Below, one piece after another: positions 16,196-36,386 of a DNA stretch of 64,000 nt; the stretch's first letter is position 1; each line of letters starts with the position of its first letter. The notes under the pieces are model-generated. The model made no database searches. It had not been told where the DNA came from and was given only the letters and a program-made list of their open reading frames with translations. The position numbers and the translations under genes are program-made. Origin of the DNA: Alphaproteobacteria bacterium. GTDB lineage: Bacteria > Pseudomonadota > Alphaproteobacteria > MPNO01 > UBA830. The stretch covers positions 896,001-960,000 of the forward strand of contig OZ219791.1 of assembly GCA_964291215.2 (NCBI GenBank), written 5' to 3'.

Positions 16196-16746
16196 CGCAA
16201 GCGATGCCGGGAAGGCATTTGACGCGGGCCTGAAGTTCCAAGGCGTGAGCTCATCGATCTGGCTGTTTGGATGGCCGGTGGCGATGGCATCGAGTGTGGC
16301 CTTCAGCCAGGCGTAGGGTTCGATGCCGTTCAGTTTCGCCGTCTCGATTAGCGATGCGTGCCCATGCGGCGGCGCCTTCATCGTGACCGGCGAAGAGTAC
16401 GTTCTTGCGGTTCAGGGCGATCGGCCGGGCGAGCTTTTCCACGGCGTTGCTATCCATCTCGATGCGGCCGTCGATGAGGAAGAGCCGGAGGCCGTCCCAT
16501 TGGCGGGCGATATAGGCGAGTTTCTCGCCGAGCCGGGACTTGGGCGAGACGCGGGCGCACTGCTGCTTCAGCCAGTCGCCGAAGGCCTCGACCAAGGGCG
16601 CGCTGCAGCTTTGCCGTTCGGCGAGCCTCCGCTCGGGCGAGCTGCCGCGGATGTCGGCCTCGATGGCGTAGAGCTCGGCAATCCGGCGCAGGCCCTCGGC
16701 CGCGATCTCCGAGCCGCTGCTGTCGTGGATTTCGCGGAGCCGGCGC
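16196..16746 (-). mobile_element. IS66-family TnpC 3' fragment
   Basis: KSRLGEKLAYIARQWDGL...IEMDSNAVEK..RPIALNRKN.LFAG and IETAKLNGIEPYAWL; cut at CTAG 16747 by IS1634. Confidence 0.85.
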
Positions 16747-16750
16747 CTAG

Positions 16751-18591
16751 CCCGAAGTTCCAGCGTCGATCAAGTGCAAGTACCTGATATAAATGACATT
16801 CGATGGATCTCAGAAGCGTCTGACTGGGTACACTACGGCTTCACGCCCAGGAGCTTGAGTGCCCTTCTCTGGAGCGGCGTGGGCCGCGTGGTGACTTGGA
16901 AGGGTTTGCCGTTCGCAGGGCCACGGTGTTGCGGGTGATGGTCGCGAGATCGCTGATGAGGGTGGAGAAGCTGTGCCATCCCCGGGCGTCCTCTTGGTTG
17001 CCGTCTTGGCCCGGGCGCTCGCCGAGACTTCTGCCGGCGCCACGACGGAAGACCGCCGGGCGCCTTCGGCATCCTCGTCGTCGAACAGCATGGGCTTCAG
17101 TCTCTGACGCATGTGCCATTCGACGTAGTAGGCGAGCATGCACAGGAAGACGTGAGCCCGGGGTTCGGTACGGTGGTAGACGGGACGGACCTTCAGATCC
17201 ACGGTCTTCAGGCTGCGGAAGGCCCGTTCCACCGAACTCAACCGCTTGTAGGCGCGCACCGTGCCGGGACCGTCGAGCTCGCTCTGCGGCAGGCGGATCA
17301 CGTAGAGGAGCCTGGCCTCGGCGGCGATGGCAGCCTCATCGCGCCCATAGGTGAAGACACCGTCGTCGTCGATGGACCACGTGAAGTGCTTCGCCATCTT
17401 GTACTTGCCGATGACCTTGCCGACCCTCTCCCCGATCTTCCCGGCACCCGGCACTTGTCGCGCCGTGTCGCTGCTGCGATCGGTTCAAGCAGGATCTCGG
17501 TAGCCTCAAGCAGTTCCTGGCGCTTGCGGGCCCGGTCCTCGGCCAGCAGGGGGTTGCGGCAGAGGCGTTCGCCGGGATACGCATCGCTGGTGATCTCCAC
17601 CAGGTCTCTCTCGTCGAAGAGCGACATCTCGACATCGCCGGCCTCCACAAGGGCGCGGATGGCCGGTCCCCTCAAGGCGCTGATCCAGTCCAGGCCCACA
17701 GGCTTCACCTCTTCGCGGGCCTCGGTCCCCCGGTCTCCCACCAGCACCAGCTTCGCAAAGGAGAAGCGCTCCTGCAGCGTGGTGATCTGTGACGCACGGG
17801 GTCCGCCGTGTTGTCGGGGAACACTTCCACCGACAGCCGTCCCGATCGCACAGAAGGCCGACTGCAGCTTGCCCTTCTTGCCATCCCGGGAATGACCCCG
17901 TTTGGCCAGGAAACACGCTCTCCCCTCCATCGACACTGAAGTCAGGAGCACCAGGCAGCCCTCTTCGAGGTGCCGCTTTGCCAGGGACCGCTCGATCCTC
18001 TCCTGACGCTCTAGGAGCCGGCGCCGTAGAGGGCGTCCTCGTCCAGCTCCGCATCGAGGATCTCGCCCAGGGTGCTGACCGCTGTCGCCAGCCCCCTGGC
18101 CAGCTTCGAGGCGGGCTCGAGGATGCGTGCCGCGATCATGGCCAAGACCTGATCGCGCGAGGGCTTCGGGTCGATCAGCCTGTCGAGACCGATCTTCTTC
18201 AGAGTTCCCAGCACTGCGGCCACATGCCCATGGGGAAGGGAGCGGACGATGTCGAAGGCGTTGTTGAGATGTCGGACTGCTGTTCCTCCCTTGAGGAGGA
18301 TGCGCAATCCCTCGACGAGAGCGGGGGACCACTTGGTGAGGTTGGCGATGGTGCGCTTCTTGACCTTTCCGTCTTCGCGACAGGACTCGCGGAGCAGGAT
18401 GGCGGGCGGCGAGGACCGGTTGGGGACGGCTTCGATGTACATGGCTACCGTATATAGGCATGGTACTGCCACATGTCAAGCACAAAATGCATCCGTACAT
18501 GGGTACGTTGTGAAGCCCGCCAAATCCAACAAACCACGCAAGATCAATGAGTTGACGCGACTATCAGCTGAAAAACGTCCGGAACTTCGGC
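16751..18591 (-). mobile_element. IS1634-family element copy 1 (degenerate)
   Basis: TIRs CCCGAAGTTCC / GGAACTTCGGC flanked by CTAG; MYIEAVPNRSSPPAILLRES..., VERAFRSLKTVDLKVRPVYH; many frameshifts. Confidence 0.85.
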
Positions 18592-18595
18592 CTAG

Positions 18596-20285
18596 CCCGA
18601 AGTTCCCGCCGATTTCAGCAGAAAAATCACGACAACTGCTTGATTGTGTTGACAAAATAAGGCGATGATGATGTGAAAATTTTCCCATGTAATGATGAGA
18701 TTTTCCCTTGAAACAGCGAGCTTTAATCCCCATATACGTTGCCATGTGCGTAGACATCGTCCCCAACCGCAACTCGCCGTCCTCCTGCGCGAAGGATGGC
18801 GCGAAAACGGCAAGGTCAGAAAGCGCACCAATCTTTCCTCCTGGCCCATGGAAAAGGTCGAGACCCTGCGGCGCCTCTTGAAGAACGAACCCCTCGTCGG
18901 TCATGCCTTCGACATCGTCCGCTCCCTTCCCCATGTCGCCGCAGTGCTGGGAACCCTGAAGAAGCTGGACAGGCTGATCGATCCGAAGCCCTCGCGCGAT
19001 CAGGTCCTGGTCATGATCGTGGCACGCATCCTCGAGCCGGCCTCGAAGCTGGCCAGGGGGCTGGCCACAGCGGTCTCCACCCTGGCCTCGATGCGGAGAT
19101 GGACGAGGATGCCCTCTACGGCTCCTGGAGCGTCAGGAGAGGATCCCCTGGCGGCGCCTCGAAGAGGGCTGCCTGGTGCTCCTGACTTCAGTGTCGATGG
19201 AGGGGTGTCCCCTGGCCAAACGGGGTCATTCCCGGGATGGCAAGAAGGGCAAGCTGCAGTCGGCCTTCTGTGCGATCGGGACGGCTGTCGGTGGAAGTGT
19301 TCCCCGGCAACACGGCGGACCCCGTGCGTCACAGATCACCACGCTGCAGGAGCGCTTCTCCTTGGCGAAGGTGGTGGGCGACCGGGGGACCGAGGCCCGC
19401 GAGGAGGTGAAGCCCGCAGGCCAGCGCCTTAAGGGGCATCCGCGCCCTTGTGGAGGCCGGCGATGTCGAGATGTCGCTCTTCGACGAGAGAGACCTGGTG
19501 GAGATCACCAGCGATGCGTATCCCGGCGAACGCCTCTGCCGCAACCCCCTGCTGGACCGGGCCCGCAAGCGCCAGGAACTGCTCGAGGCCACCGAGGTCC
19601 TGCCTGAACCGATCGCAGCAGCGACACGGCGCGACAAGCGCCGGGAAGATCGGGGAGAGGGTCGGCAAGGTCATCGGCAAGTACAAGATGGCGAAGCACT
19701 TCACGTGGTCCATCGACGACGACGGTGTCTTCACCTATGGGCGCGATGAGGCTGCCGCCGAGGCCAGGCTCCTCTACGTGATCCGCCTGCCGCAGAGCGA
19801 GCTCGACGGCACGGTGCGCGCCTACAAGCGGTTGAGTTCGGTGGAACGGGCCTTCCGCAGCCTCAAGACCGTGGATCTGAAGGTCCGTCCCGTCTACCAC
19901 CGCCCCGGACCCACGTCTTCCTGTGCATGCTCGCCTATTACGTTGAATGGCACATGCGCCAGAAACTGAAGCCCATGCTGTTCGACGACGAGGATGCCGA
20001 AGGCGGTCTTCCGTCGTGGCGCCGGCAGAGGTCTCGGCGAGCGCCCGGGCCAAGGCGGCAACCAAGAGGACACCCGGGGGTGGCACAGCTTCTCCACCCT
20101 CATCGACGATCTCGCGACCATCACCCGCAACACCGTGGCGCCCCGCCTTGCGGGCGCCCCAACCCTTCCAGGTCACCACGCGGCCCACGCCGCTCCAGAA
20201 AAAGGCCCTGGACTACCTCGGTGTACGCTTGTAGCGTTCCCAGTAGCGACACACCCGATTTTTTCAAACGTCAATACATTCATAA
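18596..20285 (+). mobile_element. IS1634-family element copy 2 (degenerate, right end truncated)
   Basis: Left TIR CCCGAAGTTCC after a shared CTAG; same transposase motifs; stops where the IS66-type end begins. Confidence 0.85.
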
Positions 20286-21639
20286 CGAGTATCTACTCAC
20301 CCCTTGTTGGGTTCTGATTCATAGTGCTCGTTGATGATGTCTGCGGCTTTTCCGTCGAGGGCGATCTGGGTGGCGACGAGTGGGTTGTAGCCGAGTGCCG
20401 CCATGGAGGTGAGGTAGCTTGAGCTCCGGCACCATGCTTTTGCGTGGAGCGGAAGCATCCGGGCACCTTGACCTTTGCCATCCTGATCTTCTGTTCTCCG
20501 GCATTGTTGGTGAAGCTGACGTTGGGGTCGTCTGTGAAGCGCAGGTTTTCGTGTTTCACGAGACGTTCGTGCAGGTTGTGCGCGTTTGCGTCCACGTTTT
20601 CCTTTCGGCGGCGGCGGGATATCGGGCAGTTCCCTGGCGCCCTGATGGTGCGGTAGCGCTTGCGCCCGGCGTCGTTCAGGGTTTTGGATGCGCTCTTGTT
20701 GACCTTGTGGCAGACCTCGCGGAGCAGGCTCTTCATCAGTCGCGCCCAGCGGTAGCCTCGACGACGAAGGTCAGTTCGCGCAGCAGGTGGCTACCGCACA
20801 ACTGGTGGCTACACTGGTCATAGCCCATGTACGAGGCCCAGCAATCGTGGACCAGGACGCCCTTGTAGCACGGGATGATGCCGATCTCTTGCCTCCCGGC
20901 CGCGCTTGCGGTGCGGGAACTTGCACGTCAGGGTCCCACGACATGGAGCCACTTACTGTTGATCCGAAATCCGGTCTCGTCGACATGCAGGGCCGGGCGT
21001 TGCAGGAGGTGCGCCACGGCGGCCTCCTCCCATGACACGAGCGCATCGTGAAAGCATAGCCGAGGCAGGTTGCCTCGGAGAGCTTGATGCCGGAGATCGC
21101 CTGCACGAACGCGACGGCACGGCGCAGGGACAGCATTTGGGCAACCAGCAGGTTGATGACGAGGGCCTGAATGCCGATGCCGTACTGCACGGGATGTTGT
21201 CGGGGAACCGGCCCTTGGTCCGGGCCTTGCACTTCGGGCATTCCTTGATCTCGGCGCGGCGCTCGACGACCTCGAACACGATGTCGTAGAGGACGCGGCG
21301 CTCCCGATCGATGGGGCCGTCGATGTCGGCGCCGCAGGCGTCGCAGGCCGCGACCGTTTCCTCGACGATGGTCTTGCGCAGGTTGTCGCCCATCTGCCGG
21401 TTCGGCTTCGGGCCCTTGCCGTTGCTTCCGGCACGCTCTTGTCCGTCTGTGACGGCGGCAGACCGGAGTTCCGGCTCGTGCGTGGTCTTCTCCAGAAGGA
21501 CGACGATGAGGATGTCGAGCAGGATGACGAATACGCGGATGACGGCCTCTTCCGCCACCTTGCCGGCCGCACGCAGCGCCTTGGCCGCTTCGAACTCCTC
21601 GCGCGCCGCGTTGACCGTCGCCATCACCCGGCCTTGCGC

Positions 21640-21753
21640 TTCATCAGCGCGCCGCCTCCGAGATGCGTTTCCACATACAGATCATGCGGGGGCTGGAGCC
21701 CCGGAAGCAGCTGGCACAGCCCGCTCGTCGCCTTCGATCCAAAGTAGCCCACT
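21640..21753 (-). pseudogene. Dam-like DNA adenine methylase N-terminal fragment
   Basis: GYFGSKATSGLCQLLPGLQPPHDLYVETHLGGGALMKRK matches the Dam-type N-terminus (Y.G.K ... Y.E.F/H.GGG). Confidence 0.55.
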
Positions 21754-21811
21754 GGCGGTCCCCGTCGTTCTCGATGACCACCACTAAACGAATCGGCCTG
21801 CAGTGTCAAAT

Positions 21812-21965: not shown

Positions 21966-23414
21966 TCAGGCGGTCAGGAAGTCCCTGTACTCCTCCATCG
22001 TCAGCACGTTGAAGTTGTCGGCCGACAGCATGTCGAAAGTCACGCCCTTGAGGATGATCTCGCTGCCTTCAAGCATCTTCGACGTGATCCTGACGCCGCC
22101 CGCTTCGTAGTCGTCGACGACCTTCAGGTCGGAGATCTGGAGGAACAGCTGTCCGGGGTTCTCCGGGTCCATCGCCTGCGCCTTGGTCTGGGCCAGGAAG
22201 AGGATGGTGTCCTCCTCGACCGAGAAGTCGGTGATCACATCGGCGCCATCGCCCTGGCGGAAAAGGAACTGGTCGGCGCCCTTGCCGCCTTCCAACCGGT
22301 CGTCGCCTGTGCCGCCCACGAATTTATCGGCGCCGGCGCCACCGGAGAGGTAGTCGTCACCTGCTCCGCTGTAGAGCCTGTCATTGCCAGCACCGCCGTA
22401 GAGTTCGTCGGCGCCAGCGCCGCCGAGGATCGTGTCGTTGCCCTCCGCGCCGTAGAGTTCGTCGTCGCCATCCTGGCTGTAGAGCCTGTCGTCGCCCTCC
22501 TGGCCGTAGAGCTTGTCGTCGCCTGCGCCGCCCTCGATCCTGTCGTTGCCCTCCCCGCCGTAGAGTTCGTCGTCGCCCTCTTCGCCGTAGAGCTCGTCGG
22601 CGCCATCCTGGCCCCGGAGCAAGTCGTCGCCATCGCCGCCGAAGAGCTTGTCGGCGCCACTGCCGCCGTAGAGTTCGTCGGCGCCATCCTGGCCGTAGAG
22701 TTCGTCGGCGCCATCCTGGCCGTAGAGCTTGTCGTCGCCTGCGCCGCCCTCGATCCTGTCGTCACCCTCTCCGCCGTAGAGCCTGTCGTTGCCATCGCTG
22801 CCGTAGAGCTTGTCGTCGCCCTCGCCGCCGTAGAGCCTGTCGTTGCCCTTTTCGCCGTAGAGCTTGTCGGCGCCCTCCCCGCCGTGGAGCTCGTCGTTGC
22901 CCTCGCCGCCGTGGAGCTCGTCGTCGCCTGCGATGCCCTCGATCCTGTCGTTGCCATTCCCGCCGTAGAGCCAGTCGTGACCCCCGCCGCCGTGGAGCTT
23001 GTCGTCGCCGTCCTGGCCCCAGAGCCTGTCGTCGCCATCGCCGCCGAGGAGCCTGTCGTTGCCGTCGCCGCCGTAGAGCCTGTCGCCGCCATCGCCGCCG
23101 AGGAGCCTGTCGTTGCCGTCCTGGCCCCAGAGCCAGTCGTCACCCTTCCCGCCGTAGAGCCTGTCAGCGCCATCGCCGCCTTCGAGATAGTCAGCGCCGG
23201 CGAAGCCTTCGAGCTTGTCGTTGCCATCGCCGCCGAAGAGCTTGTCGGCGCCTGGGCCGCCGTAGAGTTGGTCGTTGCCCTCTTCGCCGTAGAGCAGGTT
23301 GTTGCCGCCGAGGCCGTAGAGTTCGTCGTTGCCGCCGCGGCCGAAGAGCCTGTCGTCGCCCGGGCCGCCGAACAGGCGGTCCTTGCCGCCGCCGCCAGTA
23401 ATGTCTTGCGTCAT
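21966..23414 (-). CDS. RTX-type Ca2+-binding repeat protein (42 tandem nonapeptides plus putative T1SS C-terminus)
   Basis: Uninterrupted GGxGxDxLx repeats over residues ~7-384, then DGADVITDF; GAAAGGAAGG RBS upstream. Confidence 0.92.
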   Translation of the reverse strand: MTQDITGGGGKDRLFGGPGDDRLFGRGGNDELYGLGGNNLLYGEEGNDQLYGGPGADKLFGGDGNDKLEGFAGADYLEGGDGADRLYGGKGDDWLWGQDGNDRLLGGDGGDRLYGGDGNDRLLGGDGDDRLWGQDGDDKLHGGGGHDWLYGGNGNDRIEGIAGDDELHGGEGNDELHGGEGADKLYGEKGNDRLYGGEGDDKLYGSDGNDRLYGGEGDDRIEGGAGDDKLYGQDGADELYGQDGADELYGGSGADKLFGGDGDDLLRGQDGADELYGEEGDDELYGGEGNDRIEGGAGDDKLYGQEGDDRLYSQDGDDELYGAEGNDTILGGAGADELYGGAGNDRLYSGAGDDYLSGGAGADKFVGGTGDDRLEGGKGADQFLFRQGDGADVITDFSVEEDTILFLAQTKAQAMDPENPGQLFLQISDLKVVDDYEAGGVRITSKMLEGSEIILKGVTFDMLSADNFNVLTMEEYRDFLTA

Positions 23415-23543: not shown

Positions 23544-25781
23544 TCAGCCGATGTCGAGGTGTTCGTTGTACTGATCGACCGTCAGGAAGCCGAAGTCGTC
23601 GGCCGTCAGCATCTCGGACGTCACGCCCCTGACGATGATCTCGTTGCCTGCGAGCTTGGCCGAGGTGATGACCACGCCGCCCGCCTCCTCGCTGTCGGTC
23701 AGCACCAGGTCGGAGAACGAAAGAAACTTCTTCTCGGTCCCGGCATTCGCCCCGGTCTGGGCCAGGAAGACGATCGTGTCGGTCCCGTCCTCGAAGTCGG
23801 TGATAACGTCCACACCGTCGCCCCGGCGGAACAGGAACTCGTCGGCGCCCTCGCCGCCACGCAGACGGTCGGCATCCCTGCCGCCCTCCAGACGGTCGTT
23901 GCCGCCATTGCCGAACAGCCGGTCTTCGCCCGCGCCGCCGGCCAGCACATCGAGATCGCCCTCGCCGCCTTCCAGCCGGTCATTGCCGTCCCCGCCGTCC
24001 AGCGCATCGCTGCCGCGGCCGCCATACAGCATGTCGTCGCCATTGCCGCCATTGAGCGTGTCATCGCCGTCTTCGCCGTACAGCCGGTCGGCGCTCTTCC
24101 CGCCGTTCAGCGTGTCGCCGCCGGCGCCGCCGTGGAGGATGTCGTTGTTGTCATCCCCGAACAGGGAGTCGTCGCCGCTGTCGCCATACAGCGTGTCCTT
24201 GCCATTGCCGCCATACAGCGTGTCGTCGCCGCCGCGCCCGTAGAGCACGTCCGCCGCGCCCTTGCCGTCAATGGTGTCGTTGTCCTTGCCACCGACGAGC
24301 ATGTCCTTCCTGTTCGTGCCCTTGAGCGTCTTCCCGGCCTGCGGGTCCGGATACTCCTCGTTCGGGTCGAAGTCCCAGATGAAGTCGACCTTGTTCCTGA
24401 GCTCCTGCAACTGCTGGGCAGTGAGATCCTCGAAGCCCTGGAACCGGGCCAGCACCGTCTGCGAGTCGCCCGGGCCGGTGACAAGGTGCGTGGTCACATC
24501 GTTCGGGTCCGTGATGCTCCGGACAAACCGGACATCGTCCCACGAGGGTGAGGGTAGTCTTCGCCATTGCGTTATGCTGAACGGCAACCGGATGTAGTCC
24601 TCCTCGACCTTGAAGTCCCCGATGATGTCAGCGGCCCCGTCGCTGCTCCGGCCCTCGCTGATCACGAAGATGTCCCGGCCGGCGCCGCCGTAGAGCACAT
24701 CCCTGCCGTCGCCGCCATCGAGCCTGTCGTGGCCGTCGCCGCCGTAGAGCCCGTCGTCGCCGTCGCCGCCGTAGAGCAGGTCGTTGCCGCCGTCGCCGTC
24801 CAGCGAGTCCATGCCCGCACCGCCCCAAAGCGTGTCGTTGCCGTTGCCGCCTTGCAGCCGGTCGTCGCCGTCCCCGCCGCGGAGGGTATCGTTGCCGTTG
24901 CCGCCGACGAGAGCGTCGTCCCCCGCGCCGCCCTTGAGCGTGTCTTCGCCGCCATGGCCGTAGATATGGTCGGAATGCGCGGTGCCCTGAATGGTGTTGC
25001 CATTGTGGTCGCCGTTGATCCAGTCCCCGCTCGCGGTCTCCAGGAACTCGTCAATCTTCCCTTTCGCCACCCTCACGGCTTCGGCGTCATCGGGATTGAC
25101 TTCCTCCTCGAATTTGAGCTCGGCGAGTACCTTGTTGCCGAGCATGATCCGGAAGTGGGCATTCCCGTAATGGCCGTCGGGGTGGTGGACAATGGTGAGC
25201 TCCGCCCCGTCCCGGATACCGGTCACGTAGATGTAGTCGTACCAATTCCGGAAGTCCTCGATATAGACATAGCTGTCGGGGTTGAGGATGAAGTGGTCGC
25301 CGCCATGGCCGCCATGGAGGAGGCTTCCCTGCGGATCCCCGGCCTGGTTGGAGATCGGCCCCCGGCCAAGCGTCGCGTCGGTCAGCGCGCCGGTGCCGTC
25401 GTCCTGCCGGTTGCTCGCCTTGAGCTTGCCCGCGATCAGGAAGTCGTTGTGGGAGCCGCCGTAGAGGCGGTCGGCGATCTGGTCCTTCTGGTTCCCGACC
25501 AGGATGTCGTTGCCCCAGCCGCCGCGCAGGGTGTTCGGTCCGTTGCCGCCTTCGAGATAGTCGCGCCCGCCACCGCCGTGTGCGTCGCTGCCGCCGCCGG
25601 AATCCTTGAACCAGTCATTGCCCTTCTGTCCGATGAAGGTGTCCTTGCCTGCCCCTCCGATAACGTTCATCGGGCCTTCGTAGGGACTTCCGCCCTCCCC
25701 GCGCCTGGCCTCGTATCGGTTTTCTCCGGTATCCCGGGATCGATCCACCGTCTCTTCGCTGTCGATATAATGAGTTGCCAT
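23544..25781 (-). CDS. RTX-type Ca2+-binding protein, multi-block
   Basis: Three GGxGxDxL blocks separated by unique domains; C-terminus paralogous to the 21966 protein; GAGGAG RBS. Confidence 0.92.
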   Translation of the reverse strand: MATHYIDSEETVDRSRDTGENRYEARRGEGGSPYEGPMNVIGGAGKDTFIGQKGNDWFKDSGGGSDAHGGGGRDYLEGGNGPNTLRGGWGNDILVGNQKDQIADRLYGGSHNDFLIAGKLKASNRQDDGTGALTDATLGRGPISNQAGDPQGSLLHGGHGGDHFILNPDSYVYIEDFRNWYDYIYVTGIRDGAELTIVHHPDGHYGNAHFRIMLGNKVLAELKFEEEVNPDDAEAVRVAKGKIDEFLETASGDWINGDHNGNTIQGTAHSDHIYGHGGEDTLKGGAGDDALVGGNGNDTLRGGDGDDRLQGGNGNDTLWGGAGMDSLDGDGGNDLLYGGDGDDGLYGGDGHDRLDGGDGRDVLYGGAGRDIFVISEGRSSDGAADIIGDFKVEEDYIRLPFSITQWRRLPSPSWDDVRFVRSITDPNDVTTHLVTGPGDSQTVLARFQGFEDLTAQQLQELRNKVDFIWDFDPNEEYPDPQAGKTLKGTNRKDMLVGGKDNDTIDGKGAADVLYGRGGDDTLYGGNGKDTLYGDSGDDSLFGDDNNDILHGGAGGDTLNGGKSADRLYGEDGDDTLNGGNGDDMLYGGRGSDALDGGDGNDRLEGGEGDLDVLAGGAGEDRLFGNGGNDRLEGGRDADRLRGGEGADEFLFRRGDGVDVITDFEDGTDTIVFLAQTGANAGTEKKFLSFSDLVLTDSEEAGGVVITSAKLAGNEIIVRGVTSEMLTADDFGFLTVDQYNEHLDIG

Positions 25782-25819
25782 GACGATCTCTCCTCAAGGC
25801 CAAGTGAACAATGTCCTTG

Positions 25820-25848
25820 ACAATACCGGGGGGGGGGGGGGAAGTCAA
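25820..25848 (-). promoter_or_regulatory. Sigma70-like promoter with a C14 homopolymer in the spacer (putative phase-variable)
   Basis: Minus strand: TTGACT-t-C14-gg-TATTGT, spacer exactly 17 bp, about 40 bp upstream of the RTX ATG. Confidence 0.75.
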
Positions 25849-25949: not shown

Positions 25950-28900
25950 CTACCAGCGGAGCGCGCCGCGCAGCATGAGGCTGTCTTCGGGGCCCGGCTG
26001 GTGCGCGCCCTCGACGCCGAGAGACAGCCCCGCGCCGAGGCGGTAGCGCGCGCCGAGCCGCAGGGTGCGTGCGCCCGCCAGGCTGAGTCCGGCCCAGGGG
26101 GTGAGCACCGCCAACGGCCCCGGACCGGGCAGGCCGAAGCCGTGGCCCACCTCCGCCTCCAGACGGCTCTCTGCCGCGCCGGATGCAGCCGCGGGCAGGT
26201 CGAACAGCTGCCCGAGGCCGCTCTCCGTGCGCCCGTGCGCGGGACCGAAGGCGAGGAACGTCCCGCGCCCGTCGGCCCCGGGGTCGAGGCGCACAAGCGC
26301 GCTCACTCGTCGCGCTCCGCCTCGTGCGCCGCCAGGAGCCGCGCGCGCAGCTCCGCCGTCAGACCCGCCGCCGGGTCCCGCCAGGTCACGCCCGCCCCGG
26401 CCTCGAGGCCCGCCCCTTCGCCAACGCCGCCGTCATGGCGCACCCCCGCCTCCAGCGCCGGCGTCAGCGTCGCACCGCCCGCCAGCGCGTGCTCGTACGA
26501 GCCCTCCAGCAGCAGCCGCAGACGGGTCGTCTTCGCCGTCAGCCCCTCCAGACCGTCATCGGCCTCCGTGCGCAGACGCGCCGCCGAACCCTCGCCCTTC
26601 ACCGCAAGGCGCGTCATCCCGCCCTCGATCAGCTCTGCATCCTCGGCCAGGACGCTGCGCCCGCCCGCAGACACGCTCCAATGCGTCAGCCCGGCGCTGC
26701 GCGCCGGCGCGCCCTCCTCGGTGATCCGCACCTCGCCGGTCCCGTAGCCGAGGCTCGCCCACAGGGTCGAGCCGTCCGGCGCCAGCCACGCCGCATAGGG
26801 GTGCACCGACGTGATCGTCGTCTCGTGCACGCCCTTCACCCCGCCCGTCTGCGTGTCCAGCTCGCCCCGCGCATGGGAGAGCGCCGCCCCGGCCAGCAGG
26901 TCCGGGCGCACCCGCAGGTCCGCCCCCAGCTGCGCCGACCACAGGCCGCCGTCCCAGGTGACATCCTTCTCCGAACCTGACAGCGACAGCCACTCGCCCC
27001 GGCCCCATACCGCCAACGCGGACGCCTCCCCGGCGCCCGCCGCCAGCGTGAAGGACGCCCCGTCCAGCATCTCGCTCAGCGTCGGCTCCTCCGGGCGCGG
27101 CGACGCCCACTCGTCCTCCACCGGCGGCAGGGCGCCGAACCGCAGCGAGCTGCCCGGCCTGCCTGCCGCCTCGATGCGCCCCGTCACCGCCCCCAGGGTC
27201 TGCGACATCGCCGCCGCCGCCACATGCGGCAGCACCGCCGCATTCACCCGGTTCGCCCGCGCCGCGGAACCCCGGTCGCGCAGCACGCCCGCAGCCGTCG
27301 CGTCGCTCCCCACCGCGTAGTCCGCACCATCGTTCAGCGTGATGCGGTAGGCCTCCGCGCCTTCCGCATCCGCCGCCGTCGGGATCGTCACCACCCCCGT
27401 GGTGCGCGCCGCGGCGCCGAACACCGCATCGAACGAACGCGGCCCCAGACCGCCCGGAACGTCACCGGCATCGAAGCCGCTTGCGTTGCGCGCCGACAGC
27501 GTCAGGCTGACCGTCAGGCTGCCCGTCAGCGCCCGGTCGGCGGTCACCGCGAGGCGGATGTCGTCGCCCTCGGTCACCGCCGCAGGATCCTGCGCCAGCG
27601 TCAGCACCGGCAACAGCGTCGTGTCCGTCACCGCCACCGAATCGATGGTCACCGAACCGTAGCCGCCGCCCGAGGCGCCGTGGGTCAGCGTCGCCGTGTC
27701 GTCCGTCGTGTCCTCGTCACGGGCCGCGCGCACCGTCACCGTCTGCGCCGTGTCCCAGTTGGCGGTCGTGAAGGTCAGGCTGGCCGGTTCCACCGTCACG
27801 TCGCCCGACGCGCCGCCCACCGTCACCGTGACATCGCCCGAGGGTTCCGCGTCCAGCACCACCGTGTAGGCCGCACTGCTGCCCTCCGCCACCGTCAGCG
27901 CGGTCGGCGTCACCGTCACGCTTCCGGCGGGGGTCGTACCGCCGCCGGACGGCGGCGCCGCCGGCGCCACCGGCGTCGCCGTCACCGGCGCATCCGGACC
28001 CGCCCCGTTGCCGGCCCCGTTCACCGCGCGCACCTCGAACTGGTAGGCGGTGCCGTTGGTCAGACCGCTCACCTCGTGGCTGGTGGTGCCCGCACCGGAG
28101 CCGGGAATGTCCTCCCACTCGCCCCACTCGCCGCTGCCGGCCTTCCGCCGCACCTGCCACTTCGTGATGGTCGGGTTGTCCGGGTCGGTCCAGCTCAGCG
28201 TCACCGAGCCGCTGCCCGCCGCGCCGGCAAGGCCGGCCGGCTTCAACGGCGCCGCATCCTTCTCCGCCACGCTCACCACCACATCGGCGATGCTCACCGA
28301 GCCGTAGCCGCCGCCAGACGCGCCGTGAGTCAGCGTCACGGCGGGGTCCGTGTTCGTGTCCGTGCCTGCGTTCACCGTCACCGTCTGCGGCTGGTTCCAG
28401 TCGGTCCGGGTGAAGGTCAGCGCGCTCTGGTTGCCGGTCATGACGGTGTCGGTGTCCACCGTCACGTCCCCCGACGCGCCGCCCACCGTTATCGTCACAT
28501 CCGATGATGGCGGCGTGTTCAGCCGCATCGTGTACGTCCTGCTGCCCCCTTCCGCCACCGTCAGCGCCGCCGTCGACACCGTCACCCCCGGCGTATCGGC
28601 CACCGTCACGTCCACCGTGCCCGCATCCGGGATCGCATCCGCAGAAGCCCCCGTCAGCCGGAAGGCGTGGTTGATCACCGCCGTGCCGTTCGCCACACCG
28701 GTCACCGTCACCGTCCGCGCCGTGTTGTAGTTGGTGGTGGTAAACGTCAGGCTCGCCGGACTCACCCGCGCCGCCGCCGTGGCGTCGCTCGTCACCCGCA
28801 GCGTCCCCGCATACGCCTTCGTCAGCGCCACCGTGTAGGTCGCCGTGGAACCGGGCGCCACCGTCACCGGCGTCCCGGTCAGCGTAAGCGCCGCCGTGGT

Positions 28901-31036
28901 GTCGTCCTTGAAGGTCACCGTACGAATGTTCGACCAGGGACCCTGAAGGTTGCCCGTTCCCCCGGCGACACCCGCCATGCGATAGCCCGTTGCCCGAACC
29001 CGGACCTCGACCGATGCCCCGTCGGGATAGTCCAGCAGAAGCCGATTGTTGCGAGAGCCCGGGTTCTGTCTGGCACTCGCCTGGTTGAGACTGCGATCCG
29101 TCCAGGTGCTGGCCCCCTTCAGCCGGGTCTGCGCTCTCCACCAATGGAACTTGGCCGCGTCCTTCACATAGTCGTCCGCATCCGACAACTCGTTCGAGCC
29201 GCCGGCATGGGTCCAGGTCAGGTCGATCTGCCCGTTCGTCGTCGAGGTCGCCGCCGTCAGCACCGGGGCCGCCGGATCGGTCTTCGCCGTCACCTGGTCC
29301 GACCACACCGACTGCACCCCGGGACGGACCGCCGCAAACAGGCGGAACGTGTAGTCCGTGCCCTTCGTCAGCCCCGTCACCCGGACGCTCGTCCTGCTTC
29401 TGCCCGTGACCGTCGTGGTCGTGTTCCAGCCGCCCGTGCTCTTGTACTGATAGCCCCAGCTCGTTATCGGAATGCCCGTCAAGGCGCTCCAGCTCAGGGT
29501 GACCGAGGCATCGCCCCCGGCCGCCGTCAGGACCGGCTTGGGAACCGTATTCGTCGGCGTCGCCGTCACCTGGTCCGACCACACCGACTGCACACCGGGA
29601 CCGACCGCGGCGAACAGCCGGAACGTGTATTCCGTGCCGATCGTCAGGCCCGTCACCGTGGTGCTCGTCGTGCTGCCGCCGGTGACCGTCCGGGTCCTGA
29701 TCCAGCTGCCGCCCGCGGGCTTGTACTGATAGCCCCAGCTCGCAACCGTCACACCCGACAAGGCGCTCCAGCTCAGGGTGACCCTGGCGTAGCCCGGTTC
29801 GGCGCTCAGCACCGGCTTGGGAACCGCCGCCGACGGCGTCGCCTCCACCACCGCCGACGCGGCGCTGTTGCCGCCGCTGTTCCGCGCCCGGATGCGGAAG
29901 CGGTACTCGCTGTCGTTATCCAGACCCGTCACCGTGTGGGTCGTGGTGTCGGCGTCCGAACCGGAAATCGCGGTCCAGCTGCCCCAGGCGGCGCTGCCCT
30001 TCCTCTGCTGCACCCGATACCGCGTGATCGAATCGTCGTCCGGGTCGGTCCACGTCAGCTTCACCTGACGGTTGCCCGCCTCCGCCGACAGGCCCGTCGG
30101 CGCGGCGGGGACGGCGACGGTGGGGGGATCGTCGTCGTCGGTGATGGTCAGGGTGAGTCTGCCGGAGGTCCAGTCGGACTTGTAACCAAGCAGCCTGATG
30201 GTCTCGTTCGGCTCGTCCCGGGTGTCGCCGAGAATGCGCACTTTCATCGTGCCCTCGGTCTCGCCTTCGGCGATGGAGACCGTGACGCTGGCCGGATAGC
30301 ACCAGTCGGTATCCGCCGGGATCAGCGGCGCCGTGCAGGGATCGCGCCCCTTGTCGGAGCCTTTGGCCGTACCGCTGGGGCTGTCAGAAGTAACGGTGAT
30401 CGAAAAGCCCGCCGGCGCCGCCTCGCCGAGCGTGACGGTCACCGTCACGTCCGTCGAACCGGTGTTGCCCTCGGTGATCGAGGTCGAGGTAGCCGACAAG
30501 GTGATCGTCTTCGTGGTGGCCGCCACCGGCGTGGCGGTGACTTCGTTGGAGGGGCCACCGGAACTTCGATCAAGGCCTTGTTATAGTGTTCCAATGCCCT
30601 CTGACCTGGAAGGTGTAAGCGGAGTTGTTGGTCAGGCTCGTTACAGTGTGACTTCTTATTCCTATGCCGCCGGAGATGCTCGTCCATCCGATGTAGTTGC
30701 CCGTGCCTTTCTTCCACCGGTATTGCCACCGACTGTTGATGCCGTTATTGCCGGTCCACATGAGCGTAACCTGCCCGTCGCCCGCCGTGGCGGTAAGAAC
30801 GGGGGCCTGCGCTTGCGCATCCTGGGGCGCGAGGGCGGCGGCCAGCGCGATGAGGAAGAGGGCAGCGAGTCCCGCCTTCAGGCGGCGGGCGGTTCTCCCG
30901 AGGGCGCCCACCGGTTCAGCCCCGCGCCCTGACTCTTGGGGGGGGGGGGGGGTACAACGAGTTCGCGCGCGCGTGAGGCGCTCCGCCCGAAGAGCCGCAG
31001 GTCATGCATCCCGATATCGCCCGGCGTCCGCGTCAT
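25950..31036 (-). pseudogene. Giant FN3/Calx-beta/Ig-like autotransporter-type surface protein, copy B (frameshifts at the C15 tract, near 30580 and near 26305)
   Basis: Signal peptide (LAALFLIALAAALAPQDAQA), several FN3 repeats, Calx-beta-like DTRDEPNETI, barrel ending LRGALRW; split over ORFs 30570-30911, 26303-30526 and 25950-26306. Confidence 0.85.
30938..30952 (-). repeat. C15 homopolymer in the autotransporter leader coding region
   Basis: G15 on the plus strand; encodes PPPPP in frame with ATG 31036 but out of frame with the downstream signal peptide. Confidence 0.85.
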
Positions 31037-31399: not shown

Positions 31400-31690
31400 C
31401 GGTCTCGCTGGCCGGTATTCGATCCTCAACTGTCACGACGGGGAGACCGCTGCCGTCCACGCCACGCTCGAGACGGCACCGGTTGCCGGCCGTCTGCTCA
31501 CCCTCGACGCGCTCCACACCACCCGCGAGGCTGATCGTCGAGACCCATCGCGCGGACTGATGGTCAAGGGCAACGCACCTTCGAGAGAGCATCAACTGGA
31601 AGATCGCGAGCACGGGACGCTACAGCGAAAAGCCCGCGCATGGCCGCCATCGCACCATCTTTACCCCGCTAGCGAAGATGATCAACTAGT
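31400..31690 (+). mobile_element. ISAs1-family transposase remnant
   Basis: ETAAVHATLETAPVAGRLLTLDALHTTRE...MVKGNAP...EHGTLQR. Confidence 0.6.
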
Positions 31691-31911
31691 CAGGTGACAC
31701 TGAAGTAAGGTTCATTGTAAGGTTGTGTCCCGAGTCGGACAATGGAGGTTATCTCGATGGGGCGCGGTACGGTACGGTCGCTGGCGGCCTTGACCACTCA
31801 AGACCAGCACCCGCCAAAGGCCGTCCCATACCGCGTGGCATCGCCATGACCTTCGTGTTCACACTCCAACCGCCATCATATAATCATGCTTACTTCAGTT
31901 CCAGATGACTA

Positions 31912-32751
31912 GGTTGTGGACTCAAATAATTGGTTTGCGATTCTGCGGAGCAAGAATCGGCTGGCAGCCAGTTGCACGGCGGAGAGGAAGTTCCTTGTCA
32001 TAACGAGTGGCGACTCGTCGGAACTCCTTGATCTTGCCGAAGAACCGCTCGACCAGGTTGCGCATCCTGTAGATCTCGCGGTCAAGCGGCCGGGGCGATG
32101 TCCGGTTGGATTTTGACGGAATGACCGCGGTTGCTCCTGCCATCTCGATCAGATGGCGTCGGTGTCGTAGGCCTTGTCGCCGACCACCGTCTCGCTCGAG
32201 GTCGGCGAGAAGCGCCTCCGCCTGCGCGCAGTCGGCCGCCTGGCCCGGGGTCAGGAACACGGTTTTCACCCTCTCGTTCTCGCCAAGATGGACCTTCGTC
32301 GTTCGTCCGCCACGGCTCACTGCGAAGGCTCGTCGTCCCGGGACGCCCCGGCTTGTGAACGCGCACCGACGAGGAGTCCACCATGCGCAGGTGAACCGAG
32401 CGAGCCATCGTCGCTCCCGTCATCATCGCTCGTAAGCCTTTGAAGCTTCTCCATGCCCAGGTGCCGTTCTTGCTCCACCGGTTGAAGCGGTTGAAGCAGA
32501 CGGACCGTACCGCTCCGGCAGATCGCGCCACGGCGTACCGGTGCGAAGCACGAAGAATATCCCGTTCATGACCCTCCGGTCATGCACCCGCTCCGGGCCC
32601 TGGTGCTTGTCGGGAAGCACCGAGCGGAGAACCTCCCATTCCGCGTCGCTCATGTCGTGTCGGTCGCCGCTCATCCTTCACTCTCCTTGTGGATCGCTTT
32701 TGACAAGACATGGCAAATCGTGCAAAAATGTCAACATTTGGGTACACACCC
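31912..32751 (-). mobile_element. IS5-family (IS427-like) copy 1, degenerate
   Basis: TIRs GGTTGTGGACTCAAAT / ATTTGGGTACACACCC next to CTAG; RHDMSDAEW, LRTGTPWRDLPERYG, RNLVERFFGKIKEFRRVATRYDK. Confidence 0.88.
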
Positions 32752-32753
32752 TA

Positions 32754-33335
32754 GGCTGTGGACTCAAATAATTGGTTTGCGATTCTGCGGAGCAAGAATC
32801 GGCTGGCAGCCAGTTGCACGGCGGAGAGGAAGTTCCTTGTCATAACGGGTGGCGACCCGTCGGAACTCCTTGATCTTACCGAAGAACCGCTCGACCAGGT
32901 TGCGCATCCTGTAGATCTCGCGGTCGAGCGGCCGTGGCGATGTCCGGTTGGATTTTGACGGAATGACCGCGGTTGCTCCTGCCGTCTCGATCAGATGGCG
33001 TCGGTGTCGTAGGCCTTGTCGCCGACCACCGTCTCGCCCGAGGTCGGCGAGAAGCGCCTGCGCGCAGTCGGCTGCTTGGCCCGGGGTCAGGAACACGGTC
33101 TTCACCCTTTCGTTCTCGCCAAGATGGATCTTCGTCGTTCGTCCGCCACGGCCCGATTTGCGAAGGCTCGTCGTCCCGGGACGCCCCGGCACCGTGCTTG
33201 TGAACGCGCACCGACGAGGAGTCCACCATGCGCAGATGAACCGGCGGGCCATCGTCGCTCCCGTCATCACCGCTCGTAAGCCTTTGAAGCTTCTCCATGC
33301 CCAAGTGCCGTTCTTGCTCCACCGGTTGAAGCGGT
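32754..33335 (-). mobile_element. IS5-family copy 2, 5'-truncated
   Basis: Tandem with copy 1 across CTAG 32751; near-identical 3' half; interrupted by IS1634 copy 3. Confidence 0.85.
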
Positions 33336-33339
33336 TGAT

Positions 33340-35186
33340 ATTGTTGGTAAAATTGCATGATGGCCACATGAAAATGTTCCCATGTAAAAGTGAATTTTCC
33401 TCTTGACAATTCACGAGGCAATGCCTATATGCGTTGCCATGTACTTCGACATCGTCCCCAACCGCAATTCGCCCCCCGCCGTCCTCCTGCGCGAAGGATG
33501 GCGCGAGAACGGAAAGGTCAGGAAACGCACCATTGCCAATCTCTCCTCCTGGCCCATGGAGAAGGTGGAGACCCTACGGCGTCTCTTGAAGAACGAACCC
33601 CTGGTTAGCCGTACCGATGCCTTCGACATCGTCCGCTCCCTTCCTCATGGCCATGTGGCCGCGGTGCTGGGAACCCTGAAGAAGCTGGACCGGCGGATCG
33701 ACCCGAAGCCCTCTCCCGAGCGCGATCAGGTTCTCGCCCTGATCGTGGCGAGGATCCTGGCACCCGCTTCGAAGCTGGCCCGAGGGCTGGCCGAGGCCAC
33801 CGCGGCGAGTACCTTGGGCGAGATCCTCGAGGCGGAAGGGGACGAGGACGACCTCTACGACGCCATGGACTGGCTCCTGGAGCGTCAGGAGAGGATCGAG
33901 CGGTCTCTGGCGAAGCGGCACCTCGAAGAGGGCTGTCTGGTGCTGTATGACCTGACCTCGGTGTGGATGGAGGGACGAAAGTGTCCCTTGGCCCGACGCG
34001 GGCACTCCCGGGATGGCAAGAAGGGCAAGCTGCAGATCGAGTTCGGCCTTCTGTGTGATCGGGACGGGTGTCCGGTGTCGGTGCGGGTGTTCCCCGGTAA
34101 CACCCGGACACGGTGTCCTCACAGATCGCCACGCTGCGGGAGCGGTTCTCCTTTGCGAAGGTGGTACTGGTGGGGGACCGGGGGATGCTGACCGAGGCGC
34201 GCATCCGCGAGGAGGTGAAGCCTGCGGGTCTGGATCAGCGCCTTGAGGGGACCGGCCATCCGTTCACTGGTGGAGGCCGGCGATGTCGAGATGTCGCTCT
34301 TCGACGAGAGAGATCTGGTGGAGATCACCAGCAATGCGTATCCCGGCGAACGCCTCATGGTGTGCCGCAACCCGCTGCTGGCCGAAGATCGGGCTCGCAA
34401 GCGCCAGGAACTGCTCGAGGCCACCGAGGCTCTGCTCGAACCGATTGCCGCGGCGACCCGGCGCGACAAGCGCCGCCTCGAGGGGGCCTTGAAGATCGGG
34501 GAACGGGTCGGCAAGGTCATCGGCAGGATGACGAAGCACTTCACGTGGTCCGTGGACGATGACGGTGTCTTCACCTATGGGCGCAATGAGGCTACCATCG
34601 CTGCCGAGGCTAGGCTCGACGGCCTCTACGTGATCCGCACCAGCCTGCCGCAGAGCGAGCTCGACGGTCCCGGCACGGTGCGCGCCTACAAGCGGCTGAG
34701 CTCCGTGGAACGGGCCTTCCGCAGCCTCAAGACCGTGGACCTGAAGGTGCGTCCCGTCTACCACCGCACCGAGCCCCGGGCCCATGTCTTCCTGTGCATG
34801 CTCGCCTACTACATCGAATGGCACATGCGCCAAAAACTGAAGCCCTTGCTGTTCGACGACGAGGATGCCGAAGGCGGCTGTCTGTCGTGGCGCCGGCAGA
34901 GGTTTCGGCGAGCGCCCGGGCCAAGGCGGCAACCAAGAGGACGCCCGGGGGTGGCACAGTTTCCGTACCCTCATCGATGATCTCGCGACCATCACCCGCA
35001 ACACCGTGGCGCCCCGCCTTGCGGGCGCCAAACCCTTCCAAGTCACCACGCGGCCCACGCCGCTCCAGAGAAGGGCATTCAAACTCCTGGGCGTGCGCCT
35101 GTAGCGTTCCCAGTAGCGACACACCCGATTCTTTCAAACGTCAATACATTCATAATGATACGTCTGATCGGCGCTGGAACTTCGGG
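33340..35186 (+). mobile_element. IS1634-family element copy 3 (least decayed)
   Basis: MYFDIVPNRNSPPAVLLREGWRE, LYDLTS, GHSRDGK, VGDRGM; right TIR GGAACTTCGGG followed by CTAA. Confidence 0.88.
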
Positions 35187-35507
35187 CTAACTGGTAGGAT
35201 GTCGCCGGGTGAGAGTCCCGGCAGGAAGAGAGGCTAACCACCACTTCCTCCGTGAACCATGCGTCGCGAGGCGAAGCGTTGGGGAACGGCAAGCGTGGGC
35301 TGGGCTATTGAGCCACGAGATACTGCGAACCGGAGTGCCGAGGTCGTGGCCGAAGGCAACACCCTGCGAGCCGCGTTGGTGAGGGGGGCTTCGCGGGGTC
35401 TGAGAACCATGGCCGAAGCAGGGACCTGGGAGGTCTTGCCCCACTGTCGTAGAGGGGTCGCAGAGGAAATTCCGTAAACCGATGATGAACGAGAAGTCAG
35501 ATTCGGC

Positions 35508-36386
35508 GTGCAGCGAGTCTAGCTGCTGTACTTGCGGGTGTGAGTCCCGCCGGCGCAATTTCCAGTTTGGCGCCGTAGCATTGGTTCAGGGGTGACCGTG
35601 GACCAGCGAGCTGGGATGTAGAAGCCGTTGTGGGCTGGCTGGAACGCAGTGTCCAGCCGGTTCGGTCAGCCAGGGCGGCGAGCAAACCGGAGGGCCGTAG
35701 CGAAAGCGAACGATTGGATGAAGCCCCGAAATTGATTTCCCACATGAAGCTGATTAGTGGGGTAAACGGGAATGCCAAGGGCCTGCCGATAGCCCGATGG
35801 CCAGAGTCGATGCGGAAGAACTGGAGAGCACGCATCGGGTTCCCCGGTGGTAGAGACGGCGGCAATCCGGGACAGTACAGCGGTGAAAGATCGGAAGGTG
35901 AGGAGGACAGACAGGATGAAGTGACCCTTGAATGTCAAGGACCGCGTCTATAACCAGGACTGGGAAAGGACGCGGAGTCCTCCTGACTGGCGGATGAGGT
36001 CGATTAAGCGTTGACGGGCGGGACAACACAACCCGTCCTGAGCGAGGACCTCAGGGCTCAGGTGGCCTGTGCCGCGGTAGGTCAACGCCAGTGCTCAGAA
36101 ACTGGCACCGACCGACAAGACCGCGAGGTCGAAGGACGGAGCAAACGCTCGGAGATGCCGTGGGTACGGTTGGGTCAGCCTTGACCATGGCGCGTCCGGC
36201 GGAAGGCTCCGCACCGAACTCCAAGTGGGTGCCTGATGCTTGAACCGGGAAAACCGGACGTACGGAATTTTAGGGAGGCTGCTGGAAACGTGGTCTATGG
36301 TAGTTCAGCGACCCCGCCCGCAATCGAAAGAGCGGTGACGGACAAAGCCTCTGCCTACGGATGCGCGCGCCAGCGGCCTACCCGAC
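35508..36386 (+). ncRNA. ORF-less group II intron nested in the outer intron
   Basis: Starts GTGCAG; gcgggtgtgagtcccgc hairpin; DV-like gggaaaaccggacgtacggaatt; ends gcctacccgAC. Removing it restores the outer DII/DIII. Confidence 0.75.

What the first reader, a model, noticed from the sequence alone, without database searches (positions are those of the whole stretch)
25820..25848. C14 tract fills the -35/-10 spacer of the RTX promoter: a transcriptional phase switch
Seen: TTGACT-tC14gg-TATTGT gives exactly 17 bp of spacing, upstream of the RBS and ATG of the 745-aa RTX gene, with the second RTX gene co-oriented downstream. Established: spacer homopolymers tune expression by slipped-strand mispairing (e.g. 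Neisseria porA). Inference: the assembled state is ON, and +/-1 C would reduce expression of the RTX pair.
Basis: partly seen in the sequence, partly recalled or inferred. Interest (0 to 1): 0.75.

Follow-up and report, generated by a model that had tools for sequence, protein, structure and literature searches.

The report
Slippery C-run dimmer in RTX promoter
A run of 14 cytosines sits between the two recognition boxes of a predicted promoter for a pair of likely secreted calcium-binding repeat (RTX) proteins, and because the run differs in length between gene copies and related genomes it likely lets cells turn these proteins up or down at random, a trick known from human pathogens but seen here in uncultured alphaproteobacteria.

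Summary
Observation confirmed: TTGACT-tC14gg-TATTGT (17 nt), 38 nt before the ATG of a 745-aa RTX-repeat gene. The consensus match alone is not above chance, but comparison supports a real promoter. The genome's tRNA promoters use TTG-17-TA. Homologous genes in four genomes keep TTGAC at the same place, and the tract-less ones have a 16-17-nt spacer where a -10 is recognisable. Seven gene-linked tract copies in two genomes have spacers of 16-18 (runs C9-C15); a copy cut off by an insertion has 20. A second, unrelated RTX family carries a G-run at the same promoter position in four genomes. In genome G078, 15 of 27 long runs lie at RTX promoters or autotransporter 5' ends. Against: this genome has 133 long C/G runs, many in decayed transposases, so runs also arise neutrally. 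The G-family spacers are mostly not 17. Switching, start site and expression were not measured, and assembly error of ±1 is not excluded. Verdict: most likely a porA-type slipped-strand promoter, a dimmer more than a switch, on a cassette that appears horizontally transferred. Known mechanism, new setting.

The parts
25843..25848 (-). Predicted -35 hexamer TTGACT
   Evidence: TTGAC invariant in all 11 aligned homologous upstream regions
25828..25841 (-). C14 homopolymer inside the 17-nt spacer (25842-25826)
   Evidence: C13 and C15 in paralogues, C9-C12 in G078
25820..25825 (-). Predicted -10 hexamer TATTGT (has -11A and -7T)
   Evidence: TATGTT at two tRNA promoters of the genome
25812..25814 (-). 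Predicted transcription start (C25813, or neighbouring A25814/A25812); not mapped
   Evidence: inference from the usual 6-bp gap between -10 and start site (PMC8407463, passage)
25790..25795 (-). Ribosome-binding site GAGGAG; leader predicted unstructured
23544..25781 (-). RTX-repeat protein 1, 745 aa, two repeat blocks; no toxin, protease or lipase domain detected; likely type I secreted
   Evidence: HlyD gene next to a paralogue
21966..23414 (-). RTX-repeat protein 2, 482 aa, 129 nt downstream; possibly co-transcribed
   Evidence: no terminator-like or promoter-like site between the genes
30938..30952 (-). Second run, C15, in the 5' coding leader of the upstream FN3 autotransporter; out of frame as assembled
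25950..31036 (-). Upstream FN3-domain autotransporter, in pieces as assembled (leader ATG 31036; ORFs 30911-30570, 30526-26303, 26306-25950); part of the same module in G078

Best explanation
The C14 run fills most of the spacer of a predicted sigma-70 promoter for the RTX gene, and slippage during replication would likely add or drop C's, moving the spacer off its predicted optimum of 17 and so likely dimming transcription of the RTX gene (and possibly its neighbour) in a heritable, reversible way. Shown: the sequence, the conserved position of the hexamers, the length differences between copies and genomes, and the recurrence at a second RTX family. Inferred: that RNA polymerase starts here, that C14 is the high state with C13 and C15 lower and larger shifts near off, that the run switches within a population, and that selection keeps it. 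The run probably arose by homogenising an older, interrupted C-rich spacer, helped by a genome-wide tendency to merge and expand C runs. The module appears to have moved horizontally among distant bacteria.
For: (1) The genome's own promoters favour 17: 10 of 14 tRNA-upstream matches (48 tRNA genes examined). TTGAC[ATG]-N-TAnnnT peaks at 17 genome-wide, 35 versus 4-18 at other distances. (2) Tract-less homologues keep the frame: G000 C2:3288369 (68% aa) has TTGACT-17-CATAAG-38 nt-ATG, the same distances as the window; G080 has 16 and G081 has 17. (3) All 7 gene-linked tract copies have spacers of 16-18 (G000 16, 17, 18; G078 17, 16, 17, 16; SD 0.76), although their runs span C9-C15. Runs in multi-copy IS-type families of G000 have SD 2.3-2.7. 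The copy cut from its gene by an insertion has 20. (4) Tracts occur in two protein clades separated by tract-less relatives on well-supported branches. (5) A second RTX family (starts MAIE[RQ]TGG) has a G-run between TTGA(C/T) and a TAGAnT/TAAAGT box in G000 (5 copies), G078 (4-5), G079 (5) and G080 (3). (6) In G000, 15 of 133 runs have promoter-like flanks, against 82 of 3551 shorter control runs. Nine of the 15 belong to the two RTX families, and all 6 with an RBS-ATG 33-38 nt downstream start RTX ORFs. (7) Of the 27 runs of 10 or more in G078, 7 are in RTX promoters, 8 in autotransporter 5' ends and 2 at the 5' end of DNA methyltransferase genes. (8) In public-run contigs of related strains, 10 and 14 different contigs cross the tract in two runs, against 1-2 at positions 30-40 nt away. 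This is what many length alleles would give (one study). (9) Precedent: porA, where gain or loss of one G in the -35/-10 spacer changes transcription (PMC3899988, passage).
Against: The consensus match alone is at chance level. No start site, expression level or read-level length distribution was obtained. G000 has 133 long runs, and C-runs form and expand in decayed transposases (about 9 of 62 IS630-like copies, up to 8 of 67 IS256 copies), so no selection is needed for a run to exist. Copies are related, so the SD comparison overstates. G-family spacers measured from the nearest TTGA(C/T) run from 11 to 26 and only 2 of 17 are 17. The G079 homologue has the -35 but no clear -10. The many contigs at the tract could be sequencing stutter, or several paralogues. 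mutS and mutL are intact, so high slippage cannot be put down to lost repair genes. The C-spacer pattern was found in no other of 78 genomes of the order and in no JGI metagenome contig.
Confidence: 0.62

Rival explanations
1. The promoter is real, but the run is a neutral by-product of this lineage's mutational bias (deletions that merge short C runs, then expansion). It may alter expression incidentally, and purifying selection merely removes copies far from 17; it is not an adaptive switch.
For: 133 long runs with a bimodal length spectrum. All stages of merging and expansion are seen among transposase copies. Run-rich genomes are scattered among relatives: 102 runs of 11 or more in G000, 50 and 40 in two congeners, 0 in a third. 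The ancestral spacer was already C-rich. A narrow 16-18 range fits purifying selection as well as switching.
Against: Spacer runs with a downstream start fall only at RTX genes. Two unrelated RTX families carry them, one as C and one as G. In G078, where background is low, 15 of 27 runs sit at RTX or autotransporter genes. Interrupting substitutions would stabilise the spacer, yet pure runs persist in two clades.
Confidence: 0.22
2. The RTX gene is transcribed mainly from elsewhere (read-through from the upstream autotransporter, or another sigma factor), and the hexamers around the run are incidental.
For: No terminator-like site on the minus strand between the autotransporter and the -35; the hairpins there are no stronger than shuffles. 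The consensus score is 9 of 12 and not above chance.
Against: TTGAC is invariant across homologues with quite different upstream genes. In G078 L029 and L052 other sequence begins within about 20 nt upstream of the -35, yet the hexamers and intact reading frames remain.
Confidence: 0.09
3. The length differences are consensus errors of long-read assembly and the true run is invariant.
For: Long homopolymers are error-prone in sequencing (general knowledge). The three intact G000 copies differ by only +/-1. Source reads were not seen.
Against: Runs at the same position occur in separate assemblies and in contigs of public runs. G-family and autotransporter runs span 9-24 and 9-33, far beyond +/-1. 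Core genes are intact (completeness 99.3%; mutS and mutL without stops). Deletions in transposases are shared by many copies.
Confidence: 0.07

Closest known systems
Neisseria meningitidis porA promoter (poly-G between -35 and -10)
   Same: Homopolymer inside the sigma-70 spacer of a surface or exported protein gene; one base changes the spacing (PMC3899988 passage; the primary paper PMC176907 was not held).
   Different: Here poly-C on the sense strand, in a multi-copy RTX gene family of uncultured alphaproteobacteria. Switching and expression are untested. porA is a single-copy porin (recalled).
Bordetella fim2/fim3/fimX C-stretch promoters
   Same: Poly-C of similar length (10-18) in promoters of paralogous surface-protein genes, each varying on its own (PMC1891110 passages).
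   Different: There the stretch is described as spacing an activator-binding region from the -10 box. Here it lies between a good -35 and the -10, and no activator box was identified.
Haemophilus influenzae hifA/hifB (TA)n promoter and other simple-sequence contingency loci
   Same: Repeat number sets the -35/-10 spacing (PMC3899988). The genomes here also put runs in autotransporter leaders and methyltransferase 5' ends, typical contingency targets (PMC4085013 passage, for surface genes; methyltransferases recalled).
   Different: Mononucleotide rather than dinucleotide repeat, and no divergent partner gene. Background runs in dead transposases are abundant.
RTX (repeats-in-toxin) exoproteins secreted by type I systems
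   Same: Glycine/aspartate nonapeptide repeats (PF00353, 11 and 21 stretches); a paralogue lies beside ABC-transporter and HlyD genes.
   Different: Matches to haemolysins, serralysins and lipases are confined to the repeats and lie far below family cut-offs. It is not a member of those toxin or enzyme families, and its activity is unassigned.

Membership tests
Promoter-spacer SSR phase variation (porA type) | Simple repeat located between -35 and -10 hexamers of a sigma-70 promoter | tested here: met
   (promoter predicted from consensus and conservation)
Promoter-spacer SSR phase variation (porA type) | Repeat length differs between copies or strains | tested here: met
   C13, C14, C15, C15 in G000; C9, C10, C11, C12 in G078; +/-1 assembly error not excluded
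Promoter-spacer SSR phase variation (porA type) | High-frequency reversible switching within a population | tested here: inconclusive
   10 and 14 contigs across the tract in two public runs; lengths not resolved, stutter or paralogues possible
Promoter-spacer SSR phase variation (porA type) | Transcription starts just downstream of the -10 | not testable with these tools
   needs start-site mapping
Promoter-spacer SSR phase variation (porA type) | Expression depends on repeat length | not testable with these tools
   needs reporters or paralogue-resolved RNA data
Promoter-spacer SSR phase variation (porA type) | Target is a surface or secreted protein | tested here: met
   RTX repeats; type I secretion genes beside a paralogue; secretion itself inferred
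RTX cytolysin/haemolysin (NF033943) | Score above family cut-off, with a pore-forming region | tested here: not met
   220 and 301 bits against a cut-off of 1000; best matches confined to the repeats
Mismatch-repair-null mutator genome | Loss or disruption of mutS or mutL | tested here: not met
   both above cut-off, no internal stops

The most novel reading that the evidence does not exclude
Distantly related uncultured bacteria share a horizontally transferred repertoire of RTX and FN3-autotransporter genes that travel with built-in slippage switches: C-runs and G-runs in the spacers of two independent RTX promoter families, and C-runs in autotransporter leaders. Each cell would display a random subset, a pathogen-style contingency system spread across several bacterial orders. 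RTX N-termini are 93-97% identical between genomes whose MutL N-terminal domains are only 57-62% identical.
Probability: 0.42. Interest if true: 0.72.

Novelty: new member of a known kind. Interest (0 to 1): 0.55.

Why it matters
Promoter-spacer phase variation is documented mainly in human and animal pathogens. A conserved, multi-copy, apparently mobile version at secreted RTX genes in uncultured, IS-rich alphaproteobacteria would show the same bet-hedging outside that setting. It would also point to which of their many repeat proteins are under fluctuating selection from hosts, predators or phages. The natural allelic series (spacers 16, 17, 18 and 20 in one genome) and the dead-transposase runs as built-in neutral controls make it directly testable from existing long reads and metatranscriptomes. 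My four literature searches on this point (plus RTX-specific; open-access full text only) listed no paper whose title or abstract opening describes this, which does not show it is unpublished.

Tried and rejected
(1) The opposite-strand perfect TTGACA beside the run has no -10-like hexamer at 16-18 nt and is lost in G078 copies; rejected as a promoter. (2) Loss of mismatch repair as the cause: mutS and mutL are intact. (3) RTX toxin identity: below cut-offs. (4) Structure: the single-sequence AlphaFold model had mean pLDDT 39.6, was confident only over parts of the repeat blocks, and was not used for a fold search. The protein atlas did not complete. (5) Exact promoter pattern in JGI metagenome contigs: 0 matches. 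C-spacer pattern in the order: only G000, 1 of 78. (6) No RNA holder was listed among public runs, so there is no evidence on expression. (7) The run lengths carried by individual contigs at the tract could not be read, because the indel table was cut; within-population length spread remains open. (8) Intergenic regions fold no better than shuffles (z -1.2, -1.1). (9) One search's regular expression found only three full-context copies; the fourth (C2:37029) has an A in the run and was placed. (10) G030 homologues (47-48% aa) and G080 L071 have unrelated upstream sequence and were left out of the spacer counts. The G079 copy was left out for lack of a clear -10. (11) Three look-ups of earlier scan findings returned nothing. 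(12) The large peak of 230 at 17 nt for the loosest pattern may come from repeated elements and was not used.

Full report
Observation. On the minus strand the window reads TTGACT (25848-25843), t, fourteen C (25841-25828), gg, TATTGT (25825-25820): a 17-nt spacer, 38 nt before the ATG at 25781, with GAGGAG at 25795-25790. The downstream ORFs of 745 aa and 482 aa match only the RTX repeat PF00353. The site is the only sigma-70-like hit in 20-30 kb, but shuffles give 0.5 +/- 0.6, so the match alone proves little.

Setting. The window is G000:C2:896001-960000 of a 6.15-Mb, two-contig genome, 99.3% complete. It has GcrA matches over the Pfam cut-off, pointing to Alphaproteobacteria, and intact mutS and mutL. 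It is full of decayed insertion sequences. It holds 133 C/G runs of 9 or more with a bimodal spectrum: 1053 of length 6, 141 of 7, 26 of 8, then 8-19 at each length from 9 to 16, up to 33. Many lie in multi-copy elements. In an IS256 family (Pfam PF00872) and an IS630-like family (label from recalled peptide motifs, not matched directly), copies show every stage from short interrupted runs through deletion-merged C6-7 to C9-C18: about 9 of 62 and up to 8 of 67 copies. Long runs therefore arise here without any obvious function. Relatives vary: 102 runs of 11 or more in G000, 50, 40, 2 and 0 in four congeners, none in 33 of 78 genomes of the order.

Is it a promoter? Fourteen of 48 tRNA genes had a TTG-N-(T/C)A match upstream, and 10 of the 14 had a 17-nt spacer (others 14, 16, 18, 19). 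The rRNA promoter-like site has 18. Genome-wide, TTGAC[ATG]-N-TAnnnT peaks at 17 (35 versus 4-18). A survey of start-site data gives 17 bp and 6 bp as the commonest distances across taxa (PMC8407463, two passages). A diverged paralogue (C2:3288369, 68% aa, beside the HlyD gene of a type I secretion system) has TTGACT, an interrupted C-rich 17-nt spacer, CATAAG and again 38 nt to the ATG. Homologues in other genomes keep TTGAC at about the same distance: G080 with a 16-nt interrupted C-rich spacer and TATGCT, G081 (titled Pseudomonadales) with 17 nt and CAGAGT, G079 with the -35 but no clear -10. TTGAC is invariant in all 11 aligned upstream regions. Several copies lack -7T, which is common in alphaproteobacteria (PMC7703639, abstract opening in a search listing only).

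Does the run vary? G000 has four tract copies: C13 (spacer 16), C14 (17, this one), C15 (18), and tca-C15 (20), the last cut from its gene by about 2 kb of inserted sequence. G078 has four: tca-C12 (17), tca-C11 (16), and in the secretion-linked clade C10 (17) and C9 (16). All seven gene-linked copies lie at 16-18 (SD 0.76), against SD 2.3-2.7 for runs in IS-type families. The copies are related, so this is suggestive only. A tree of the first 235 residues (15 rows) puts tracts in two clades separated by tract-less G079, G080 and G081 on 98-100% branches. That means either two origins, re-interruption, or promoter exchange. In contigs of three public runs from one study, every contig over position 25840 carries the tca form. 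In two runs 10 and 14 contigs cross the tract, against 1-2 at sites 30-40 nt away. This fits many length alleles but also stutter or paralogues, and the lengths themselves were not seen.

Is the placement special? Of 133 G000 runs, 15 have promoter-like flanks (82 of 3551 control runs of 5 or more, taken from the first 1.5 Mb of each contig). Nine of the 15 belong to two RTX promoter families, and all six with an RBS-ATG 33-38 nt downstream start RTX ORFs. Two others had more distant starts (45 and 72 nt) that look spurious. The second family has a G-run between TTGA(C/T) and a TAGAnT/TAAAGT box before genes starting MAIE[RQ]TGG (MTIKRTG in two G079 copies), and is found in G000, G078, G079 and G080. 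Against a simple reading, its spacers are 11-26 and only 2 of 17 are 17. A second -35-like hexamer 4-7 nt upstream makes the active spacing ambiguous. In the order-wide search that pattern hit 5 other genomes of 78; only G038 looked like a similar promoter, before a long signal-peptide protein. In G078, the 27 runs of 10 or more divide as 3 RTX C-promoters, 4 RTX G-promoters, 8 autotransporter leaders, 2 methyltransferase 5' ends, 5 behind ssb-like genes, and 5 others. The autotransporter upstream of our gene carries a C15 in its leader. Such runs put the strong-RBS ATG in frame with the signal peptide in 0 of 11 scored G000 copies (the twelfth, C9, lacks the signal part) and 2 of 8 G078 copies, although many downstream frames are long and intact.

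Mobility. RTX N-terminal regions are 93-97% identical in G078-G080 and 68% in G081, while the MutL N-terminal domain is 62, 60, 57 and 49% identical, lower than in the five same-order genomes tested, at 65-78%. Three of four congeners have no match to the RTX protein and the fourth only repeat-level matches (genomes 93-99% complete). Horizontal transfer of the gene with its promoter is the simplest reading. The host or habitat is not shown by any search.

The protein. Matches to haemolysins, CyaA, serralysins and lipases cover only the repeats and are far below cut-offs. The single-sequence model is unreliable outside the repeat blocks. It is best described as a likely type-I-secreted, calcium-binding repeat protein, perhaps adhesive or surface-coating (inference). 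The second RTX gene follows after 129 nt with its own RBS and no predicted terminator or promoter between, and is present behind 2 of 4 G000 copies and in L029.

Mechanism. Slipped-strand mispairing in C14 would change the -35/-10 distance. In porA one base is enough to change transcription (PMC3899988, passage), and Bordetella fimbrial C-stretches of 10-18 act similarly but through activator spacing (PMC1891110, passages). Since this genome also uses 16- and 18-nt spacers, +/-1 is more likely to dim than to silence. I give this 0.62, a neutral by-product in a real promoter 0.22, transcription from elsewhere 0.09, and artefact 0.07.

Literature seen: passages of PMC5084427, PMC8407463, PMC1891110, PMC4085013 and PMC3899988; search listings only. 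No supplements were read. Searches listed nothing that describes spacer homopolymers at RTX promoters of uncultured alphaproteobacteria; subscription papers are not covered.

Verdict. Interest 0.55.

Noticed in passing
window 30938-30952 (-); 12 copies in G000, 8 in G078 (L047-L050, L056, L064, L065, L069): Poly-C (9-33) in the leader between a strong-RBS ATG and the signal peptide of large FN3 autotransporters. In frame in 0 of 11 scored G000 copies and 2 of 8 G078 copies, while many downstream frames are intact (1280-2163 aa). A likely translational phase switch, mostly OFF, or a GTG start downstream of the run.
   Followed up: partly
G000 C1:33659, 2154016, 2156230, 2457316, C2:2876174; L082-L093: Second RTX family with a G9-G24 run in the promoter spacer in four genomes, usually with two -35-like hexamers 4-7 nt apart, which could give two active length windows.
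   Followed up: partly
L058:729-738 and L061 (G078): C10 in frame at the very 5' end of an N6/N4 DNA methyltransferase gene (PF01555), two copies; candidate phase-variable methyltransferase.
   Followed up: partly
G000 C2:2068079-2068102; L046:784-795 (G078): A G-run between cas1 and cas2 in G078 (12 long); the matching sequence in G000 has 24.
   Followed up: no
L101 (G000 C2:2056812-2059150), 8 copies: A conserved element with a C17-C31 run in a leader resembling the autotransporter leader and a second C6-C14 run about 300 nt on. In the copy read, it precedes a 604-aa lipoprotein-like ORF.
   Followed up: no
G000, about 30 sites, e.g. C1:770016-770050: Palindromic G-run-CTAG-C-run junctions at insertion-sequence ends, with either or both runs expanded from 6 to as many as 17.
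   Followed up: partly
window 16200-21800 and 31400-36000: Dense stacks of transposase fragments with many small deletions; in the families examined genome-wide, the same deletions are shared between copies, indicating real decay rather than random assembly error.
   Followed up: partly
window 25950-31036 (-): The upstream autotransporter is broken as assembled in three places (leader run, near 30570, near 26305).
   Followed up: no
L073 (G038:C1:2785573): TTGACG-G15-t-TATGCT (16 nt) before a long signal-peptide protein: a similar spacer run in another family of the order.
   Followed up: no
L019:9413 (G030): C13 about 390 nt upstream of the G030 RTX homologue, not in an evident spacer.
   Followed up: no
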